From the IMG/VR virus record IMGVR_UViG_2897328257_000001: a stretch of 23,636 nt of DNA. One strand, written 5' to 3'. The position numbers and the translations under genes were made by a program. The notes below the pieces were generated by a model. The model was not told the origin of the DNA, did not search any database, and worked only from the letters and a program-made list of their open reading frames with translations. Shown here piece after piece: positions 3,603 to 23,636 of this stretch. The stretch is from a virus (lineage: Duplodnaviria; Heunggongvirae; Uroviricota; Caudoviricetes). Within the stretch, counting starts at the first letter, position 1, and each line of letters starts with the position of its first letter.

Positions 3603-3965
3603 TTAACGACCTGCTGCGCGGAGTTTTCCGTCAGGTTCACCGGCAAGAGTCAGTAATTGTCCCTGGTCTTCCTGCAGAATAGTCAGGCGACCACCGCGAT
3701 TGACATACATCGGCGTTTCGGTGGTGTCTTCTTCGGAAATTTTCCCGCGGTTAGTTGGGCGAACATATGAGAGTTTGTGTTTGATTTTCACACGGTTCTC
3801 ATCAAACGGTTCGATTTCCAGATTGAGTGAGACCTTCCCTTTGGTTTTCGTGTTCATCACACCGGAAGCGACCTCACTGAGAACTGCGCCGATTTTGGTT
3901 TCAAATACGCCGCCGTCCAGCTCCCCGATAAATGCCTGCACATCAGTACTGCGTTCGCTAGCCAT
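3603..3965 (-). CDS. Hypothetical early protein, 120 aa (YfdP-like); start at ATG 3965 (MASERSTDVQ...)
   Basis: AGGAG 7 nt upstream of ATG at 3965; the longer ORF-track N-terminal extension is Cys/Arg/Pro-rich and runs into the GC-rich non-coding region, so is unlikely to be translated. Confidence 0.65.
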   Translation of the reverse strand: MASERSTDVQAFIGELDGGVFETKIGAVLSEVASGVMNTKTKGKVSLNLEIEPFDENRVKIKHKLSYVRPTNRGKISEEDTTETPMYVNRGGRLTILQEDQGQLLTLAGEPDGKLRAAGR

Positions 3966-4014: not shown

Positions 4015-4101
4015 CAAAACAGAGAAGAACACCTGCGGTGGCAGCCGCCCGGATGGATTGGGTTATGAGCCCGTCGTCCGGTGATGCTCTTCTCTGTTTT
4101 G
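4015..4101. other. Long-range perfect 14-bp inverted repeat (CAAAACAGAGAAGA at 4015-4028 / TCTTCTCTGTTTTG at 4088-4101) enclosing a 59-nt GC-rich segment with nested small hairpins; candidate structured RNA element
   Basis: Seen directly; a 14-bp perfect IR with a 59-nt spacer is very unlikely by chance in 23 kb. Confidence 0.5.
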
Positions 4102-4111
4102 CAAAAAAGGA

Positions 4112-4220
4112 CGGTACCAGCCGGAAGCAAGGGTACAAACTGGTACCGCCAGGACTACACACAGCATAAACTTGTGGTGCCGGGTGCCTCCCGGTGCCTG
4201 GCGAAGGTTGCACACCAGGC
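4112..4220 (+). ncRNA. Candidate structured non-coding RNA region: tandem GC-rich hairpins (CGGTACCAG 4112-4120 / CTGGTACCG 4140-4148; CCGGG-tgcct-CCCGG 4180-4194; GCCTGG 4196-4201 / CCAGGC 4215-4220)
   Basis: Several perfect stems within about 110 nt in a region with no credible ORF; flanking G-T pairs extend the 4180-4194 stem only on the plus strand (G-U in RNA), weakly favouring plus-strand function; no family assignment possible without searches. Confidence 0.35.
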
Positions 4221-4376
4221 GGGTGGGTATCCACAGAAGGTCGACTGTCAGCCTCAACCTTAACCCGCGTGCGCTGAGCCGCATTCACCACAACGCTAAG
4301 GATTCTCTCTGGTTGAAAATACTTAGCTGTTATGTGCCTGCTTTTAGCCACATCAGGCGAGGTGGACCTGGTTATT

Positions 4377-4421
4377 CCCCAACAACAAGGATTCGGTTAA
4401 TCTGGATATCCCCAACAACAA
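4377..4421 (+). repeat. Direct repeat of 12-mer CCCCAACAACAA (4377-4388 and 4410-4421), each preceded by GGTTA, in the leader of the plus-strand ORF
   Basis: Seen directly; CA-rich repeats immediately upstream of the putative start codon. Confidence 0.5.
4399..4417. repeat. Left copy of about 19-bp imperfect inverted repeat (AATCTGGATATCC-c-CAACA) flanking the 4436-4951 ORF
   Basis: 13-bp perfect core AATCTGGATATCC at 4399-4411 is the reverse complement of 4967-4979; flanks also match in inverted orientation (18 of 19). Confidence 0.6.
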
Positions 4422-4435
4422 TAAGAGTATTCAAT

Positions 4436-4951
4436 GTGATCGCTGAATTAACGGCAGCAATGACGGCTATTCGTGAAACAGCCCAGATTGCAAAACTAAT
4501 GAACGAGGCAAAAACTCAAGCTGAAGTAAATGCGGCTATTGGTGAGCTGAACTCAAAGCTTGCGTCTATTCAGCGCGAATGCGTGTCTCTCGTTGAACTG
4601 GTGGGCTCTTATCAAGAAATAAATGCTTCTCTCAAAGCTAAAATTGCAGAATTCGAAAACTTTGAGGCTCAGACGGAAGGCTATATCCTTAACCAACTTG
4701 AGTCGGGTACTTTTGTATACTCGAAGGAGGTAATCGTGAACGGTGGCAGCATAACCATGCATCTTTGCCCAAAATGTTTTGGACAAAAGATAGTATCGAT
4801 ACTTCAACCATTCCCGGTTAGCGAAGATGAGCTTTTTCATAAAAGCAGGTGCCTCCACTGTGAAAATAAGTTTCTGATGAATAAAAATCCGGATTACGTA
4901 TCGCCTCCATCCATTGAGGAGTTGTCCAGAAAACTTAACGGCAATCTGTAG
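4436..4951 (+). CDS. Hypothetical protein, about 171 aa: N-terminal coiled-coil-like helical region plus C-terminal CxxC...CxxC zinc-ribbon-like motif (CPKC ... CLHC); candidate moron, function unknown
   Basis: Longest ORF in an AT-rich segment; putative GTG start at 4436 with AAGAG 8 nt upstream (alternative ATG at 4460); intrinsic terminator 40 nt after stop; oriented opposite to the PL operon; flanked by inverted repeats. Confidence 0.6.
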   Translation: MIAELTAAMTAIRETAQIAKLMNEAKTQAEVNAAIGELNSKLASIQRECVSLVELVGSYQEINASLKAKIAEFENFEAQTEGYILNQLESGTFVYSKEVIVNGGSITMHLCPKCFGQKIVSILQPFPVSEDELFHKSRCLHCENKFLMNKNPDYVSPPSIEELSRKLNGNL

Positions 4952-4960
4952 ATTACTACT

Positions 4961-4979
4961 GTTGTGGATATCCAGATTG
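4961..4979. repeat. Right copy of the about 19-bp inverted repeat (core GGATATCCAGATT at 4967-4979)
   Basis: Reverse complement of 4399-4411 core; contains 10-bp palindrome TGGATATCCA. Confidence 0.6.
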
Positions 4980-4988
4980 TTAAAGAGC
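4976..4988 (-). promoter_or_regulatory. rrn-type boxA-like element on the PL transcript (minus-strand GCTCTTTAACAAT); candidate nutL-type NusB/NusE site
   Basis: 13 of 13 match to the core of the E. coli rrn boxA (TGCTCTTTAACAATTTATCA, from memory), about 105 nt downstream of the predicted PL start, where nutL sits in lambdoid phages. Confidence 0.45.
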
Positions 4989-4990
4989 TA

Positions 4991-5014
4991 AGCGTCCTGT
5001 AGGGCGCTTTTTTG
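4991..5014 (+). terminator. Rho-independent terminator for the plus-strand ORF (AGCGTCC-tgta-GGGCGCT followed by TTTTTT)
   Basis: 7-bp stem (one G-U) plus six T; the stem is weaker on the minus-strand RNA (A-C mismatch) and no U-tract follows in that direction, so it is unidirectional. Confidence 0.7.
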
Positions 5015-5081
5015 TTGCTAACGAATCATCCTGGACTTCATATGCCCCAGGCGGCTACTTCGTGGGCGTCCTGCCTGTTTG

Positions 5082-5120
5082 TTGTTTCTCTTGGGTACAT
5101 TATGTATCTCATAGGTACAT
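5082..5120. promoter_or_regulatory. OL-like operator region: 19-mer ATGTATCTCATAGGTACAT (5102-5120) plus degenerate copy TTGTTTCTCTTGGGTACAT (5082-5100)
   Basis: Shares the GTAC-containing symmetric 19-mer pattern with the OR sites (TTGTACC-N5-GGTACAA; ATGTAC-N7-GTACAT); overlaps the PL -10 and spacer. Confidence 0.5.
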
Positions 5121-5126
5121 TGTCAA
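5099..5126 (-). promoter_or_regulatory. PL-like early leftward promoter: -35 TTGACA (5126-5121), 16-bp spacer, -10 CATAAT (5104-5099)
   Basis: Near-consensus sigma70 hexamers on the minus strand, immediately downstream of the repressor-gene terminator and overlapped by operator-like 19-mers. Confidence 0.65.
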
Positions 5127-5130
5127 GTAT

Positions 5131-5153
5131 AAAAAAACCTGCCGAAGCAGGTT
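5131..5153 (-). terminator. Rho-independent terminator of the repressor transcript (minus-strand RNA AACCUGC-UUCG-GCAGGUU + UUUUUUU)
   Basis: Perfect 7-bp stem, UUCG tetraloop, 7-U tract, 13 nt after the cI-like stop codon. Confidence 0.85.
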
Positions 5154-5165
5154 CATAAACATTGA

Positions 5166-5840
5166 TTAGGCTTTGATTTTGTATCTTCTTGGTTTTCCTG
5201 AGAAAATCACAGTTCCAATTATAGAGCAATTACCGTTGATCTTAATGTAAGGCTCAGGCCAGTTTGGGTTTAACGCTTTGAGATAACGCTGTGTCCCATC
5301 TTCTATCAACCTTTTGAAGGTGGTTTCACCTGTATCGTGCATCAATGCAATAACGTCGTCACCGTGGCAGGCAGGTACTTCAGGATCGACAAAAATCATG
5401 TCTCCCGGGCGGTACTCATCAATCATTGAATCACCTATCACCCGCAAGATATAAGTCATTTCCCCACAGGGTACAGGGCAGGGATACGTTTCTGCTGTGC
5501 TCAAATCAACCTCAGAATATCCAACTTCTTTCCATGCTCCGGCCTGTACCCATGATATGACAGGGACTAATGTGATTTGTTTATTAGTGATTGAAACATC
5601 AGGTTTTTTTGTGATGTTCGTTGTCTGGTGTTCTTGATCGAGCCATCCGACAGGCAGGTCGAAACATTTTTCGATGTGTCGTGCCATGCTGTCACCGATA
5701 TTTTTAGTAGCACCATCTCCCATAAACCTGCTGGTCTGGGTTGGCTCGCGATCAATCATAGTGGCAAAGGAAGAATTCCCTCCAACACCATCTCTCAGTT
5801 TTCTGGCGTTAGACCGCCGGATGTCATGGATTGTTTTCAT
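5166..5840 (-). CDS. CI-like prophage repressor with C-terminal LexA/S24 peptidase (autocleavage) domain, 224 aa
   Basis: C-terminal VIGDSM ... GDMIFVD ... TFKRL (Ser/Lys dyad) typical of S24 repressors; divergent from a cro-like gene across an operator region; no SD before the ATG (possible leaderless PRM transcript as in lambda). Confidence 0.85.
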   Translation of the reverse strand: MKTIHDIRRSNARKLRDGVGGNSSFATMIDREPTQTSRFMGDGATKNIGDSMARHIEKCFDLPVGWLDQEHQTTNITKKPDVSITNKQITLVPVISWVQAGAWKEVGYSEVDLSTAETYPCPVPCGEMTYILRVIGDSMIDEYRPGDMIFVDPEVPACHGDDVIALMHDTGETTFKRLIEDGTQRYLKALNPNWPEPYIKINGNCSIIGTVIFSGKPRRYKIKA

Positions 5841-5930: not shown

Positions 5931-6131
5931 ATGAAAGCGTATTGGGACTCTTTAACCAAAGAACAGCAGGGCGAGTTGGCCGGAAAAGTTGGCTCAACTC
6001 CTGGCTACTTACGGCTGGTTTTCAATGGCTATAAAAAAGCCAGTTTTGTGCTGGCTAAAAAACTTGAGCAATGCACGTCAGGTGCAATTACGAAATCTGA
6101 CTTAAGACCGGATATCTATCCGAAAGATTAG
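5931..6131 (+). CDS. Cro-like small HTH regulator (YdaS/Cro family), 66 aa
   Basis: First gene of the rightward operon, with strong SD; C-terminal ...GAITKSDLRPDIYPKD resembles the YdaS-type Cro signature (KVTRHDLRPD, from memory). Confidence 0.7.
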   Translation: MKAYWDSLTKEQQGELAGKVGSTPGYLRLVFNGYKKASFVLAKKLEQCTSGAITKSDLRPDIYPKD

Positions 6132-6162: not shown

Positions 6163-6732
6163 ATGAGGCTAATCGTGGGTAAGCATCACTGGAAAATAGA
6201 AAAACAGCCTGAGTGGTACGTGAAAGCTGTCAGAAAAACTATCGCGGCGTTGCCGGGTGGTTACGCTGAAGCGGCTGACTGGCTCGATGTAACAGAAAAC
6301 GCTTTATTCAACCGCCTTCGTGCAGATGGCGATCAGATTTTCCCGCTGGGATGGGCAATGGTTTTACAGCGTGCTGGTGGCACTCACTTCATTGCTGATG
6401 CTGTGGCGCAGTCTGCAAATGGCGTCTTTGTGTCGCTTCCTGACGTCGAGGATGTGGACAACGCCGATATTAACCAGCGTCTGCTGGAAGTCATTGAACA
6501 GATCGGCAGTTATTCAAAACAGATTCGTTCAGCAATCGAAGACGGTGTAGTGGAACCGCATGAGAAGACAGCAATTAACGACGAGCTGTATCTCTCAATT
6601 TCGAAGCTGCAGGAGCATGCAGCACTGGTCTACAAAATCTTTTGCATTTCAGAAAGTAATGACGCCCGCGAGTGTGCAGCTCCGGGCGTCGTGGCGTCGA
6701 TTGCTTCTGGTTGTGGAGAAACTAACGCATGA
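6163..6732 (+). CDS. Hypothetical early regulatory protein, 189 aa, in the cII position (possibly YdaT-like)
   Basis: ORF immediately downstream of the cro-like gene; stop overlaps next start (ATGA); function inferred from position only. Confidence 0.55.
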
Positions 6733-7076: not shown

Positions 7077-8018
7077 ATGAGCACTAAATTAACCGGCTAT
7101 GTATGGGATGGTTGCGCAGCGTCAGGCATGAAATTATCCAGCGTGGCAATTATGGCCCGCCTGGCTGATTTCAGTAATGACGAAGGTGTGTGCTGGCCAT
7201 CGATTGAAACCATTGCCCGCCAGATTGGCGCGGGGATGAGTACCGTCAGAACGGCTATCGCACGGCTGGAAGCAGAAGGCTGGTTAACGCGTAAGGCGCG
7301 TCGCCAGGGTAACCGCAATGCGTCGAATGTTTATCAGCTTAACGTTGCGAAGCTTCAGGCAGCGGCATTTTCTCAACTGTCAGATTCTGACCCGTCAAAA
7401 TCTGACGCATCAAAATCTGACCCGTCAAAATTTGATGCGTCGAAATCTGGCAAAAAAGCGGGTTTTCACCCGTCAGAATCTGGCGGGGATCCGTCAGTAA
7501 AATCAAAACATGATCCGTCAGATAAAAAACCTTCTCGTCCGGACTCTTCGCAACCGGACACGCAGACGGCTGAACAGGATTTTTTAACTCGCCATCCTGA
7601 TGCGGTTGTATTCAGCCCTAAAAAGCGCCAGTGGGGGACGCAGGATGATTTGACCTGCGCACAGTGGCTCTGGAAAAAAATCATCGCCCTGTACGAGCAT
7701 GCCGCCGAATGTGACGGCGAGGTGGTTCGTCCCAAAGAACCGAACTGGACAGCCTGGGCAAACGAAATTCGCCTGATGTGTGTGCAGGATGGTCGTACTC
7801 ATAAACAAATCTGCGAGATGTACAGCCGCGTCAGTCGCGATCCGTTCTGGTGCCGTAACGTGCTCAGCCCGTCGAAGCTGCGGGAAAAATGGGATGAGCT
7901 TTCCCTGCGCTTATCGCCGTCCGTCAGCACGTACACCGAAAAACGCGAAGACCCGTACTTCAAAGCCAGTTACGACAACGTGGACTACAGCCAGATCCCG
8001 GCAGGATTCAGGGGGTGA
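7077..8018 (+). CDS. Replication initiator protein (O-like: N-terminal HTH/winged-helix DNA-binding domain, repeat-encoded linker, C-terminal domain), 313 aa
   Basis: N-terminal ...WPSIETIARQIGAGMSTVRTAIARLEAEGWL... is HTH-like; the gene contains tandem 15-bp DNA repeats (iteron-like) as lambda O contains ori; sits in the replication-module position. Confidence 0.7.
   Translation: MSTKLTGYVWDGCAASGMKLSSVAIMARLADFSNDEGVCWPSIETIARQIGAGMSTVRTAIARLEAEGWLTRKARRQGNRNASNVYQLNVAKLQAAAFSQLSDSDPSKSDASKSDPSKFDASKSGKKAGFHPSESGGDPSVKSKHDPSDKKPSRPDSSQPDTQTAEQDFLTRHPDAVVFSPKKRQWGTQDDLTCAQWLWKKIIALYEHAAECDGEVVRPKEPNWTAWANEIRLMCVQDGRTHKQICEMYSRVSRDPFWCRNVLSPSKLREKWDELSLRLSPSVSTYTEKREDPYFKASYDNVDYSQIPAGFRG
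7392..7451. repeat. Four tandem 15-bp iteron-like repeats (CCGTCAAAATCTGAC consensus) inside the replication initiator gene, with three further dispersed CCGTCAG copies to 7521; candidate replication origin
   Basis: Seen directly: 7392-7406, 7407-7421, 7422-7436, 7437-7451; analogous to lambda ori iterons embedded in gene O. Confidence 0.6.
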
Positions 8019-8020
8019 TC

Positions 8021-8509
8021 ATGAGTCTTTTGAATGACGTTCAGAAATTCATTGAAGCCCATCCGGGGTGTACTTCCGGAGACATTGCGGATGCTTTTGC
8101 AGGTTACTCACGGCAGCGCGTTCTGCAGTCAGCAAGCAAGTTACGTCAGAGCGGGCGTGTGGCTCACCGTTGTGAAGGAGATACACGCAGACATTTCCCG
8201 CGCCTGACTGAGAGAGCGCAGGAACCGGAACCACAACCAGTTCGAGAAACCAGACCTGTGCGCAATTTCTATGTCGGCACTAACGATCCACGGGTGATTT
8301 TGTGCCTGACCCGCCAGGCGGAAGAACTGGAGTCCAGGGGCTTATACCGTCGTGCTGCAACGGTGTGGATGGCGGCATTCCGTGAAAGCCACTCCCAGCA
8401 AGAGCGAAACAATTTTCTTGCGCGTCGTGAGCGGTGTTTACGGAAAAGCAGCAAGCGCGCTGCATCGGGTGAAGAGTGGTATCTGTCAGGGAATTACGTG
8501 GGGGCTTAA
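8021..8509 (+). CDS. Hypothetical protein, 162 aa, with wHTH-like N-terminal segment (possibly YfdN-like)
   Basis: ATG at 8021 preceded by AGGGGG; translationally coupled to the downstream methyltransferase (TAATG overlap). Confidence 0.6.
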   Translation: MSLLNDVQKFIEAHPGCTSGDIADAFAGYSRQRVLQSASKLRQSGRVAHRCEGDTRRHFPRLTERAQEPEPQPVRETRPVRNFYVGTNDPRVILCLTRQAEELESRGLYRRAATVWMAAFRESHSQQERNNFLARRERCLRKSSKRAASGEEWYLSGNYVGA

Positions 8510-9162
8510 TGAGTAATAAATATTGCCAGGCGCTGGTGGAACTGCGGAACAAACCAGCCCATGAACTGAAGGAAGTGGGCGATCAGTGGCGCACGCCGGA
8601 CAACATTTTCTGGGGAATTAACACCCTGTTTGGCCCGTTTGTTCTGGATCTGTTCACTGACGGTGATAACGCCAAATGTGCCGCGTATTACACGGCGGAA
8701 GACAACGCGCTGGCGCATGACTGGTCAGAACGTCTTGCGGAGCTTAAAGGTGCTGCCTTTGGTAATCCCCCATACAGCCGCGCCAGTCAGCATGAGGGGC
8801 AATACATCACCGGCATGCGTTACATCATGAAGCATGCCAGTGCCATGCGTGATAAAGGCGGGCGCTATGTTTTCCTGATTAAAGCTGCCACCAGCGAAGT
8901 GTGGTGGCCGGAAGATGCAGATCATATTGCTTTTATTCGCGGGCGTATTGGTTTTGAACTGCCTGTCTGGTTTATCCCGAAAGACGAGAAGCAGGTACCG
9001 ACAGGCGCTTTCTTCGCTGGTGCTATTGCTGTTTTCGACAAGACCTGGAAGGGACCGGCAATCAGCTACATCGGGCGCGATGAACTTGAGGCATGTGGTG
9101 AGGCCTTTCTGGCGCAGGTTCGCCAGCAGGCGGAAAAACTGGTCAGGGAGATGGCGGCATGA
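8509..9162 (+). CDS. Phage Dam-family N6-adenine DNA methyltransferase, 217 aa
   Basis: Catalytic NPPY motif (FGNPPYS) and overall resemblance to phage orphan N6-adenine methyltransferases; a new ORF begins at 9159 (MTTLTQCQQ...) and is cut by the assembly gap. Confidence 0.85.
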   Translation: MSNKYCQALVELRNKPAHELKEVGDQWRTPDNIFWGINTLFGPFVLDLFTDGDNAKCAAYYTAEDNALAHDWSERLAELKGAAFGNPPYSRASQHEGQYITGMRYIMKHASAMRDKGGRYVFLIKAATSEVWWPEDADHIAFIRGRIGFELPVWFIPKDEKQVPTGAFFAGAIAVFDKTWKGPAISYIGRDELEACGEAFLAQVRQQAEKLVREMAA

Positions 9163-9187
9163 CGACGTTAACTCAATGCCAGCAGCA

Positions 9188-9198
9188 NNNNNNNNNNN
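9188..9198. other. Assembly gap (11 N); unknown true length
   Basis: Run of n characters; flanked on the right by the IS left end, i.e. a typical repeat-induced contig break. Confidence 0.99.
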
Positions 9199-10440
<1,242 letters not shown>

Positions 10441-23052: not shown

Positions 23053-23636
23053 TGGCATTCAGAATGAGTGAACAACCACGGACCATAAAAATTTATAATC
23101 TGCTGGCCGGAACTAATGAATTTATTGGTGAAGGTGACGCATATATTCCGCCTCATACAGGTCTGCCAGCAAACAGTACCGATATTGCACCGCCAGATAT
23201 TCCGGCAGGCTTCGTGGCTGTTTTCAACAGTGATGAGGCATCGTGGCATCTCGTTGAAGACCATCGGGGTAAAACCGTCTATGACGTGGCTTCCGGCGAC
23301 GCGTTATTTATTTCTGAACTCGGCTCATTACCGGAAAATGTCACCTGGTTATCCCCGGAAGGGGAGTTTCAGAAGTGGAACGGCACAACCTGGGTGAAAG
23401 ATGCAGAAGCAGAAAAACTGTTCCGGATCCGGGAGGCGGAAGAAACAAAAAACAGCCTGATGCAGGTAGCCAGTGAGCATATTGCGCCACTTCAGGATGC
23501 TGCAGATCTGGAAATCGCAACGGAGGGAGAAACCTCGTTGCTGGAAGCCTGGAAAAAGTATCGGGTGTTGCTGAACCGTGTTGATACATCAACTGCACCT
23601 GATATTGAGTGGCCTACGAACCCTGTCAGGGAGTAA
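23052..23636 (+). CDS. tfa: Tail fibre assembly protein Tfa, 194 aa
   Basis: [44 protein letters not shown]... matches lambda Tfa family; start overlaps the stf stop. Confidence 0.93.

What the first reader, a model, noticed from the sequence alone, without database searches (positions are those of the whole stretch)
4436..5126. Convergent arrangement: moron gene faces PL, with a one-way terminator between them
PL (TTGACA-16-CATAAT, minus strand, 5099-5126) fires leftwards straight through the antisense of the plus-strand ORF, while that ORF's terminator (4991-5014) is strong only for plus-strand transcripts. The gene could therefore be expressed in the lysogen when CI represses PL, and silenced by transcriptional interference or antisense RNA after induction. 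No N-like antiterminator gene was found in the about 1.1 kb between PL and the first early-left gene.
Basis: inference. Interest (0 to 1): 0.55.

Follow-up and report, generated by a model that had tools for sequence, protein, structure and literature searches.

The report
Rip1-type defence gene facing prophage PL
A prophage gene related to the Rip1 antiphage pore protein sits backwards in the early-left operon, fenced off by a terminator that works in one direction only, while the opposing PL transcript carries a ribosomal-type boxA signal and a previously undescribed structured leader RNA in place of an N antiterminator gene.

Summary
The window is an SfV/CPS-53-like lambdoid prophage. PL (TTGACA-16-CATAAT, 5126..5099, minus) is overlapped by two operator sites that match the OR sites. 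The plus-strand ORF 4436-4951 is real. The hairpin at 4990-5009 terminates plus-strand transcripts only.

The ORF is a member of the Rip1 (ring-interacting pore 1) antiphage family. This rests on sequence (E 2.7e-7 to PDB 9oox) and on a predicted fold (Foldseek probability 1.0). Rip1-family genes lie on the strand opposite to the surrounding lytic operon in every context examined, including the characterised JBD30 and HK446 genes. The convergent layout is therefore typical of the family, not a local oddity.

New points:
- The ORF sits in a cassette slot whose 5' module and 3' module are more conserved than the genes between them; at least four unrelated ORF families occupy it.
- The 3' module is two-faced: a plus-strand terminator with a conserved U·G pair that becomes a C·A mismatch on the other strand, and on the PL strand an exact rrn-type boxA (GCUCUUUAACAA).
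- A 64-nt RNA with strongly covarying helices starts about 10 nt into the PL transcript, which is where HK022 has putL.
- A sub-threshold STnc100-like sRNA region with a strong intrinsic terminator lies before the first early-left gene.

No N gene was found. Silencing of the gene after induction remains an inference.

The parts
4436..4951 (+). rip1-like gene (171 aa): long N-terminal helices followed by a C-terminal four-cysteine zinc-ribbon beta domain.
   Evidence: phmmer against PDB 9oox_L 'ring interacting pore 1', E 2.7e-7 over residues 14-150. AlphaFold2 mean pLDDT 90. Foldseek against 9oox_M: probability 1.0, TM 0.72 (normalised by target; 0.56 by query), next hit E 0.38. phrog_1244, 9e-60. 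123 homologues; C111, C114, C139 and C142 invariant.
4328..4435 (+). Conserved 5' module of the cassette. It holds GCCTG...CAGGC..GGTGG (4336-4365), the direct repeat TCCCCAACAACAA (4376-4388 and 4409-4421), a -10-like TAATCT (4398-4403) and the Shine-Dalgarno AAGAG (4423-4427). It is probably the promoter and 5' UTR of the plus-strand gene.
   Evidence: Near-invariant in 59 unique variants. It precedes at least four unrelated ORF families. No conserved RNA fold on either strand. The only promoter-like reading found at one fixed position across variants is TTCCCC-17-TAATCT, and it is weak. HK446 rip1 and HK620 hkaP share its first half and an analogous layout.
4399..4424 (.). Left arm of the inverted repeat that flanks the ORF (AATCTGGATATCCCCAACAACAATAA).
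   Evidence: I1: 26 nt, 85% complementary. Both arms are kept in all loci examined.
4953..4978 (.). Right arm of the inverted repeat. On the PL strand it reads AAUCUGGAUAUCCACAACAG directly after boxA.
4977..4988 (-). boxA, GCTCTTTAACAA. Together with the next base it is identical to the rrnG boxA plus spacer start (gcucuuuaacaau) over 13 nt.
   Evidence: The only match in the window with up to 1 mismatch; 0.09 expected by chance. Exact, or one mismatch, in the 68 unique 3' modules (selected by boxA with up to 1 mismatch); kept next to a different hairpin in O157-type loci. rrn sequence taken from PMC2724277.
4990..5015 (+). One-way intrinsic terminator of the rip1-like gene: an 8-bp stem with a U·G pair, loop TGTA, then T6.
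   Evidence: The strand asymmetry (U·G on plus, C·A on minus) is conserved across variants.
5020..5083 (-). Structured 5' leader RNA of the PL transcript. It has a closing helix P0, a small hairpin P1 (GGC-AGGAC-GCC), the linker CACGAAGUAGCC, a hairpin P2 with conserved loop GGCAUAUGAAG, and then GAUGA.
   Evidence: 53 distinct sequences: 92.4% of cells paired, 11 of 14 pairs with changes on both sides, 0 of 500 shuffles reach the observed values, and slid controls pair at most 44%. One copy per phage. It starts 12-26 nt after the -10 of unrelated strong promoters in 11 of 14 loci. No Rfam family matches.
5099..5126 (-). PL promoter: -35 TTGACA at 5126..5121, -10 CATAAT at 5104..5099.
5082..5120 (.). 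Operators OL2 (5082-5100) and OL1 (5102-5120), of the form ATGTAC-N7-GTACAT.
   Evidence: (D1, D6).
5135..5154 (-). Terminator of the cI transcript.
   Evidence: -11.6 kcal/mol, z -4.4, U7 tail.
5166..5840 (-). cI repressor (Peptidase_S24).
4101..4316 (-). Sub-threshold STnc100/PasD-like sRNA region within the PL transcript. It has a 5' hairpin (4335..4286) and a strong intrinsic terminator (about 4150..4105, followed by U6).
   Evidence: RF02076: 39 bits, E 1.2e-6, below the gathering score of 47. The copy in locus L008, which aligns with the window at 82% identity, passes at 49.1 bits. Terminator -23.3 kcal/mol, z -3.9; 5' hairpin -18.2 on the minus strand against -10.3 on the plus strand.
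3603..3965 (-). First early-left gene, a yfdP homologue.

Best explanation
The locus is a defence-gene cassette set backwards into the untranslated leader of the early-left (PL) operon of an N-less lambdoid prophage. The two strands carry separate signals so that each transcript works without damaging the other.

**In the lysogen (inferred).** CI occupies OL1 and OL2 and PL is off. The rip1-like gene is transcribed from the conserved 5' module. Its product waits for ring-shaped portal or small-terminase assemblies of a superinfecting phage, as reported for Rip1. The plus-strand terminator stops this transcript before it can run into OL/PL and antisense into cI.

**After induction (inferred).** PL fires leftward. 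The first 75 nt fold into a conserved three-helix RNA. The polymerase passes the hairpin, which is weakened on this strand by a C·A mismatch and lacks a U-run. It then transcribes an rrn-type boxA that should recruit NusB/NusE and partners. This would let it cross about 1.1 kb of untranslated RNA, including the antisense of rip1, without Rho-dependent termination. Reading through rip1 should lower its expression by collision and by antisense pairing. That would also spare the phage's own portal and terminase rings from triggering the defence. The transcript then runs through an STnc100-like sRNA and a strong intrinsic terminator. Reaching yfdP through int requires read-through of that terminator, for which the leader RNA is the best candidate by analogy with HK022 put.

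**Shown versus inferred.** Shown from sequence and comparison: the anatomy, the family assignment, the strand asymmetry, the covariation and the synteny. Inferred: all transcriptional behaviour.
For: - Rip1 membership.
- Opposite-strand placement: SfV-like, Rac-like O157, Citrobacter, Klebsiella, Lelliottia, a second E. coli type, Edwardsiella (that phage has an N gene), Arsenophonus (late region), Pseudomonas JBD30 (between the terminase genes), HK446 and HK620 (just after N).
- Cassette slot with conserved flanks and at least four ORF families.
- One-way terminator with conserved U·G / C·A asymmetry.
- boxA exact, unique in the window, and retained with an unrelated hairpin that has no T-run in O157-type loci. 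rrn boxA sequence and its anti-Rho role: PMC2724277.
- Operators and promoter.
- Leader RNA covariation, single copy and promoter-proximal position.
- No N gene.
- Minus-strand terminator and STnc100 relation.
- Reported Rip1 biology (prophage-encoded, not toxic alone, triggered by portal or small-terminase rings): review PMC13434031.
Against: - There are no transcript data for either strand.
- The plus-strand promoter is only a weak match, TTCCCC-17-TAATCT.
- The antisense RNA has no pronounced C-rich, G-poor rut-like tract, so the need for boxA against Rho is an argument from its untranslated length only.
- rrn-type boxA complexes are not known to overcome strong intrinsic terminators.
- The leader RNA has no detectable similarity to HK022 or HK639 put, so its function is a guess from position.
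- Identity to characterised Rip1 is only 27-29%, so the trigger and effector activity may differ.
- Some phages that carry the leader RNA show no obvious downstream sense-strand terminator.
Confidence: 0.55

Rival explanations
1. The 3' module is only the terminator of the plus-strand gene, and its resemblance to boxA is incidental. The conserved TTGTTAAAGAGC would be an upstream A/T-rich element that helps plus-strand termination. PL transcripts would simply die in the leader, so PL here mainly makes a leader RNA and sRNA.
For: In most variants the motif sits directly 5' of the plus-strand hairpin. A strong minus-strand terminator ends the leader at about 4105. No N gene is present.
Against: The 12-mer equals the rrn boxA exactly. 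About 13 O157-type loci keep it next to a different hairpin with no T-run, so it does not depend on the plus-strand terminator. No other promoter-like site for yfdP-int was found downstream of the terminator. Phage records that are about 99% identical are deposited as complete phage genomes, so the early-left genes, including xis and int, must be expressible.
Confidence: 0.15
2. The inverted repeats make the cassette an invertible or mobile DNA segment, so that the gene is switched on or off by its orientation relative to PL.
For: A 26-nt inverted repeat with an 8-bp palindromic core flanks the ORF, and both arms are conserved.
Against: No invertase or transposase lies nearby. In 647 E. coli genomes the region including both arms and outside flanks matches the window with at least 80% coverage (all but one of the listed full-length rows are a single collinear piece). 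The orientation relative to the flanking operon is the same in all loci examined.
Confidence: 0.04
3. The conserved 64-nt RNA after PL is not an antiterminator. It could be another cis or trans element: a stable 5' fragment acting as an sRNA or decoy, a binding site for a phage or host protein, or a stabiliser of the transcript's 5' end.
For: It shows no similarity to put. Some carriers show no obvious downstream terminator. Loci with boxA but without this RNA exist (L006, L016, L018).
Against: Its fixed position 12-26 nt after the -10 of unrelated PL promoters and its presence in phages in which no N gene was detected fit a co-transcriptional action on the polymerase. None of this excludes the rival.
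Confidence: 0.3

Closest known systems
Rip1 (ring-interacting pore 1) antiphage defence: Pseudomonas JBD30-type gp30 and phage HK446 gp37. Source: Patel et al. 2026, Nature 651:1060, as summarised in PMC13434031; PDB 9oox.
   Same: Homologous sequence and predicted fold. Similar size. Prophage-encoded. Lies on the strand opposite to the surrounding lytic genes.
   Different: Only 27-29% identity. This branch has a four-cysteine zinc ribbon that is invariant within the family. Activity and trigger are untested. HK446 has N and nutL upstream, whereas this phage has none.
HK620 hkaP, annotated as a 'putative superinfection exclusion protein' in the PL operon (record AF335538).
   Same: Same protein family (28% identity). 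Same opposite-strand position downstream of PL. Its upstream region shares the first half of the 5' module.
   Different: HK620 has N, nutL and annotated tL terminators. It has no boxA at the 3' flank of the gene and no CCCCAACAAC repeats.
rrn antitermination leader (boxB hairpin, boxA, boxC), and boxA-dependent protection of long untranslated transcripts.
   Same: The boxA core is identical, and the order is hairpin then boxA. It sits at the entry to a long untranslated RNA.
   Different: It is in a phage PL leader on the antisense side of a gene. No clear boxC is present. Binding of Nus factors is untested.
HK022 and HK639 put RNA, a cis-acting antiterminator.
   Same: About 65-70 nt, with multiple helices. 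It lies immediately downstream of PL in a phage without N (PMC9378689).
   Different: No sequence or covariance-model similarity. The helix layout differs. There is a single copy and no PR-side partner in the window.
Lambdoid morons as defined by Hendrix and colleagues: a promoter, gene and terminator unit expressed from the repressed prophage (definition from my own knowledge).
   Same: Low-GC insert with its own terminator, between conserved flanks, with variable content among relatives.
   Different: The flanks themselves form a conserved exchange slot, and the far flank encodes a signal for the opposing transcript.
STnc100 / PasD prophage sRNAs (RF02076; bioRxiv 10.64898/2026.05.13.724894).
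   Same: Sub-threshold full-length match including the terminator; prophage context.
   Different: The window copy scores 39 bits, below the gathering score of 47. Here it is embedded in the PL leader rather than having an evident promoter of its own.

Membership tests
Rip1 antiphage family | Sequence homology to characterised Rip1 | tested here: met
   phmmer E 2.7e-7 to 9oox_L over 137 residues. tblastn E 2e-11 to the JBD30/DMS3 gene and 4e-4 to HK446.
Rip1 antiphage family | Fold: N-terminal helical part plus a C-terminal domain that contacts the ring | tested here: met
   AlphaFold2 mean pLDDT 90.4, helices at residues 2-79, beta domain at 84-150. Foldseek against 9oox_M: probability 1.0, TM 0.72 normalised by target; all other hits have E above 0.3.
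Rip1 antiphage family | Prophage-encoded | tested here: met
Rip1 antiphage family | Forms a pore when templated by portal or small-terminase rings, and protects against phage | not testable with these tools
   Needs plaque assays, liposome leakage assays or cryo-EM.
Intrinsic terminator (unidirectional) | G+C-rich stem followed by a U-run on the transcribed strand | tested here: met
   Plus strand: 8 bp, -11.5 kcal/mol, U6. Minus strand: C·A mismatch, -7.5 kcal/mol, no U-run. The asymmetry is conserved.
Lambdoid PL/OL | Strong sigma-70 promoter downstream of cI, overlapped by operators shared with OR | tested here: met
   Activity itself was not tested.
Lambda-type nut site | boxA followed by a boxB hairpin that is bound by a phage N protein | tested here: not met
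   boxA is present, but no conserved hairpin lies downstream of it and no N gene is present.
rrn-type boxA antiterminator | boxA consensus UGCUCUUUAACAA; a hairpin upstream is optional | tested here: met
   12 of 13 in the window and 13 of 13 in O157-type loci.
rrn-type boxA antiterminator | Recruits NusB/NusE (with NusA, NusG, SuhB) and suppresses Rho-dependent termination | not testable with these tools
   Needs binding assays and read-through assays.
put RNA (HK022 type) | Homology to putL or putR | tested here: not met
   BLAST finds nothing in HK022. The sequences were compared by eye. The covariance model built from this element finds nothing in HK022 or HK639.
put RNA (HK022 type) | Structured RNA just downstream of PL in an N-less phage, acting in cis on RNA polymerase | tested here: inconclusive
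   Position and structure are met. Action on the polymerase is untested.
STnc100 (RF02076) | Score at or above the Rfam gathering threshold | tested here: not met
   Window copy 39.0 bits against 47. The L008 copy, in a locus that aligns with the window at 82% identity, scores 49.1 bits.
Moron | Own promoter active in the lysogen | tested here: inconclusive
   No site passes the consensus scan on the plus strand. There is a weak TTCCCC-17-TAATCT at a conserved position, with a parallel layout in HK446 and HK620.
Moron | Own terminator; insert between conserved flanks; deviating base composition | tested here: met

The most novel reading that the evidence does not exclude
The 64-nt covarying RNA that begins about 10 nt into the PL transcript would be a new family of put-like, factor-independent or Nus-assisted processive antiterminators. 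It is found in many lambdoid phages of Escherichia, Shigella, Salmonella, Klebsiella, Citrobacter, Yersinia, Pectobacterium and Aeromonas; no N gene was detected in those checked. Together with an rrn-type boxA carried on the antisense side of exchangeable defence cassettes, it would let the early-left operon read through opposite-strand defence genes and switch them off at induction.
Probability: 0.3. Interest if true: 0.8.

Novelty: new variant of a known kind. Interest (0 to 1): 0.55.

Why it matters
- It assigns a likely function, Rip1-type abortive defence, to a gene annotated 'hypothetical'. Close DNA matches to the cassette occur in at least 647 of 5,426 complete E. coli genomes, including O157:H7.
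- It shows that the backward orientation of such genes is a family-wide rule.
- It suggests how a prophage can carry a defence that senses portal and terminase rings without harming its own lytic cycle.
- It shows that the cassette brings along signals that protect the host operon from polarity: a one-way terminator on one strand and boxA on the other.
- It defines a well-supported structured RNA at the 5' end of PL transcripts in N-less lambdoid phages. How these phages achieve early antitermination is, to my knowledge, largely uncharacterised, and this RNA gives a direct experimental handle on the question.

Tried and rejected
- **put homology.** BLAST of the window against the HK022 immunity region found nothing. 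putL of HK022 and the annotated putL-like RNA of HK639 were read and compared by eye; they share only CAGGAUGA. The covariance model does not hit them.
- **SfV termination-mediated immunity** (Roberts et al. 2007; content recalled from memory, citation seen). The C4/isrK RNAs of SfV and ST64B lie in the PR operon, not here, and are absent from the window.
- **RNA structure in the 5' module.** RNAalifold gives -8.6 kcal/mol (plus) and -13.3 kcal/mol (minus) with no covariation.
- **Strong plus-strand promoter.** None was found.
- **CRP, DnaA-box and Ogr-type readings of the 5' module.** Considered by eye and dropped, because spacing or variable positions do not fit.
- **Rho-loading (rut) signature on the antisense RNA.** C/G ratios are 0.7-1.5, which is not informative.
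- **Invertible cassette.** No recombinase is present and the orientation is constant.
- **Strand bias of the inverted repeat.** 37 of 48 arm pairs pair better on the minus strand, but this is expected from a CA-rich invariant arm and is not evidence.
- **Literature search for the motif sequences.** No hits.
- **Primary papers.** The Rip1 paper and the SfV paper are not held in the library.
- **N-like proteins downstream of the leader RNA in five other phages.** No Pfam hit. N proteins are diverse, so this is weak evidence.
Full report
**Context.** The window is an SfV/CPS-53-like lambdoid prophage. Reading leftward from the immunity region it carries integrase (1-1164, minus), an HTH excisionase-like ORF, homologues of yfdT, yfdS, yfdR, yfdQ and yfdP on the minus strand, cI (5166-5840, minus; Peptidase_S24), a cro-like gene (5931-6131, plus) and a cII-like gene (6163-6732). 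It is about 99.5% identical to phages PhiR49_1 and PhiR29 from E. coli ECOR13. It shares flanks with SfV, SfIV, SfII and ST64B.

**Check of the observation.**
- The scan finds TTGACA-16-CATAAT at 5126..5099 on the minus strand, 11 of 12 matches. On a simple weight matrix it scores higher than the PR-like site.
- The promoter sits right after the cI terminator at 5154..5135 (-11.6 kcal/mol, U7).
- It is overlapped by two 19-bp sites of the type ATGTAC-N7-GTACAT, at 5102-5120 and 5082-5100. The only other good matches in the window are three sites between cI and cro. That is the lambdoid OL/OR pattern.
- The ORF 4436-4951 starts with GTG, preceded by AAGAG. Its 123 homologues begin at the same MIAEL... 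and are mostly 165-175 aa long.
- The hairpin 4990-5009 plus T6 is a good terminator on the plus strand (-11.5 kcal/mol). On the minus strand it is a poor one (-7.5 kcal/mol, centroid -3.9, no U-run).
- From the PL start (about 5092) to the yfdP ATG (3965) is 1127 nt.
- No ORF in between matches Pfam N_peptide, while an Edwardsiella N protein used as a control does.

**What the gene is.**
- Pfam and PADLOC give nothing useful. PHROGs gives phrog_1244, of unknown function.
- Against PDB sequences the only significant hit is 9oox chain L, 'ring interacting pore 1 (Rip1)', E 2.7e-7 over residues 14-150.
- An AlphaFold2 model built on 44 homologues has mean pLDDT 90. It has helices at residues 2-79 and a beta-rich four-cysteine domain.
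- Foldseek returns the two Rip1 chains of 9oox (phage HK446 Rip1 bound to T6 small terminase) with probability 1.0 and TM 0.72 normalised by the target. Everything else has E above 0.3.
- tblastn links the ORF to the gene between the terminase genes of Pseudomonas phages JBD30, DMS3 and D3112 (E 2e-11), to hkaP of HK620, and to HK446 gp37.
- According to the review PMC13434031 (citing Patel et al. 2026, Nature 651:1060), Rip1 is a prophage-encoded single-protein defence. It is harmless alone. It assembles into a membrane pore around portal or small-terminase rings of an infecting phage.
- I therefore file the ORF as a diverged Rip1-family member. Its activity is untested.

**Orientation is a family trait.** In every context I fetched, the homologue lies on the strand opposite to the flanking lytic genes:
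- the O157:H7 Rac-like prophage;
- another E. coli immunity type;
- Citrobacter, Klebsiella, Lelliottia and a further E. coli type, in each case next to the repressor gene;
- Edwardsiella, where an N gene and a normal nutL precede it;
- Arsenophonus, in the late region near the terminase;
- JBD30, between the small-terminase-like and large-terminase genes;
- HK446 and HK620, just downstream of N.

So 'moron faces PL' is right, but it is the rule for this family rather than a peculiarity of this window.

**A cassette slot.**
- Block comparison shows that 3900-4365/4419 and 4972/5020-5086 are shared with relatives that hold other genes in between.
- A scan of IMG/VR for the 5' module hit its limit at 120 loci.
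- Behind the module lie at least four unrelated ORF families: Rip1-like (83 ORFs), a roughly 155-aa protein with apparent hydrophobic segments (23), an approximately 150-aa family that may correspond to the ECs1072-type gene of SfIV and L007 (5) and a 98-aa protein (3).
- In nearly all cases the reverse complement of boxA follows 11-30 nt, sometimes 100-200 nt, after the stop codon.
- Both flanking modules are far more conserved than the proteins, which fall to 44% identity.

**The 3' module has two faces.** I collected 68 unique variants, shown in PL orientation.
- The common hairpin reads AAGCG-C-CC / GG-A-CGCUU. On the PL strand this contains a C·A mismatch. On the plus strand the same positions form a U·G pair, giving a clean 8-bp stem followed by T6-7.
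- The loop varies freely while this asymmetry is kept. This is what selection for a terminator that works in one direction only would produce.
- Directly after the hairpin, on the PL strand, comes GCUCUUUAACAA. It is exact in most variants. It is the only such site in the window (0.09 expected with up to one mismatch). It is identical to the rrnG boxA plus the start of its spacer (ugcucuuuaacaau; PMC2724277).
- In about 13 O157-type loci the hairpin is replaced by an unrelated one (GCCGGA...UCCGGC) with no T-run on the plus strand, yet UGCUCUUUAACAA is kept. boxA is therefore not a by-product of the plus-strand terminator.
- The Edwardsiella phage, which has N and its own nutL, lacks boxA at the cassette.

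My reading is as follows. The terminator keeps the defence-gene transcript out of OL/PL and out of the antisense of cI. boxA equips the opposing PL transcript for the long untranslated passage. This part is inference.

**A structured RNA at the 5' end of the PL transcript.**
- The 70 nt after PL (5086..5020) are conserved in phages with quite different repressors: SfV, SfII, SfIV, ST64B, mEp237, mEp460, SPN3UB, Citrobacter phiNP, Klebsiella phages, Yersinia YeP1-3, Pectobacterium ZF40 and Aeromonas pAEv1818. The region is unannotated or lies under a hypothetical protein in every listed record.
- An alignment of 53 distinct sequences supports three elements: a closing helix P0 (for example GCGAA/UUCGC, GUCAUC/GAUGAC, CCACC/GGUGG), a small hairpin P1, and a hairpin P2 with up to five pair types per position and a conserved loop GGCAUAUGAAG.
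- The pair counts are strong. 92.4% of cells are paired, 11 of 14 pairs change on both sides, none of 500 shuffles reaches the observed values, and structures slid by 1-3 columns pair at most 44%. P1 is weakly supported.
- A covariance model finds exactly one copy per carrier phage. It finds none in HK022, HK639, the O157 Rac-like locus or K-12.
- In 11 of 14 loci a strong promoter, with unrelated sequence between the hexamers, ends 12-26 nt upstream of P0.
- In ZF40 and SPN3UB the order is cI terminator, PL, then the element, as in the window.
- There is no detectable homology to HK022 putL or to the annotated putL-like RNA of HK639. No Rfam family matches.
- I regard the element as a real, apparently undescribed structured RNA. 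Antitermination is the leading hypothesis, but it is untested.

**Further down the PL transcript.**
- The minus strand at 4316..4101 gives a full-length but sub-threshold match to STnc100 (39 bits against a gathering score of 47; E 1.2e-6). The copy in locus L008, which aligns with the window at 82% identity, passes (49.1 bits).
- STnc100 and PasD are prophage sRNAs (bioRxiv 10.64898/2026.05.13.724894).
- The element ends in a strong intrinsic terminator (-23.3 kcal/mol, z -3.9, U6). It begins with a hairpin that is much more stable on the minus strand (-18.2 against -10.3 kcal/mol).
- Without antitermination, PL transcripts should therefore stop about 140 nt before yfdP.

**The 5' module remains unexplained.**
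- It has no conserved fold on either strand.
- It has no consensus promoter.
- The only promoter-like reading at a fixed position is TTCCCC-17-TAATCT (4375-4380 and 4398-4403).
- HK446 rip1 and HK620 hkaP share its first half (TGCCTGTCTTTTAACCACATCAGGCTCGGTGG). Their second half has the same layout: TACCCC, 17 nt, TAAAAT, 5 nt, TACCCCTACAG. In both versions this puts one copy of a direct repeat at -35 and one near +1. That suggests a regulated promoter with an unknown binding factor.
- The inverted repeat AATCTGGATATCC(C/A)CAAC at both ends of the ORF is conserved but does not covary.

**Verdict.**
The layout, the one-way terminator and the moron-like character hold up, and they are strengthened by comparison with relatives. 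Silencing after induction is plausible but untested.
- The gene belongs to a recently characterised defence family in its usual backward orientation, so the core finding is a new member of a known kind.
- The antisense-strand boxA on an exchangeable cassette and the PL-leader RNA are, to my knowledge, undescribed. They raise the interest of the locus.

Noticed in passing
window 5020-5083 (minus): A 64-nt RNA with strongly covarying helices begins about 10 nt into the PL transcript. It is conserved across lambdoid phages from Escherichia to Aeromonas that have unrelated repressors, and it matches no Rfam family.
   Followed up: yes
window 4101-4316 (minus): STnc100/PasD-like sRNA (39 bits, below the Rfam gathering score) embedded in the PL leader. 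It ends in a strong intrinsic terminator about 140 nt before yfdP.
   Followed up: partly
window 4015-4038 / 4078-4101: A 24-nt inverted repeat (83% complementary) in the 5' UTR of yfdP, just downstream of the minus-strand terminator. It could be a long hairpin that controls yfdP translation or processing.
   Followed up: no
window 9259-9381 (+) and 23395-23593 (+): Rfam matches above the gathering score: the isrC Hfq-binding RNA (150 bits) and IS009 RNA (226 bits).
   Followed up: no
window about 9180-9200: A short masked stretch; it reads as XXXX in the translations of ORFs 8725-9291 and 8915-9220.
   Followed up: no
L029, L033, L038 and about 20 other IMG/VR loci, downstream of the 5' module: The same slot holds a roughly 155-aa protein with apparent hydrophobic segments, often followed by small proline-rich ORFs. 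Other loci hold an approximately 150-aa protein (possibly the ECs1072-type gene of SfIV and L007) or a 98-aa protein. These are likely further defence or exclusion genes.
   Followed up: partly
L151 2811-2940 (HK446) and L152 2868-2997 (HK620): The region upstream of characterised rip1 and of hkaP shares TGCCTGTCTTTTAACCACATCAGGCTCGGTGG with the window's 5' module. It has a direct repeat TACCCCTACAG in the same positions as the window's TCCCCAACAAC repeats.
   Followed up: partly
L002 5553-5741 (SfV), L004 5232-5420 (ST64B), L018 3211-3399: An isrK plus C4-antisense RNA pair, an immunity or antirepressor control element of the P1/P7 type. In SfV and ST64B it lies in the PR operon. It is absent from this window.
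   Followed up: no
L007 3242-4132: In a relative with another immunity type, a gene for a BRCT-domain protein lies between the repressor gene and PL, on the strand opposite to both.
   Followed up: no
L020 3619-3745 (minus): A tRNA-like Rfam hit (38 bits) lies just upstream of the cassette in the Lelliottia locus.
   Followed up: no
window 8015-8509 (+): The YfdN-like ORF has a PerC transcriptional-activator domain (E 2e-9).
   Followed up: no
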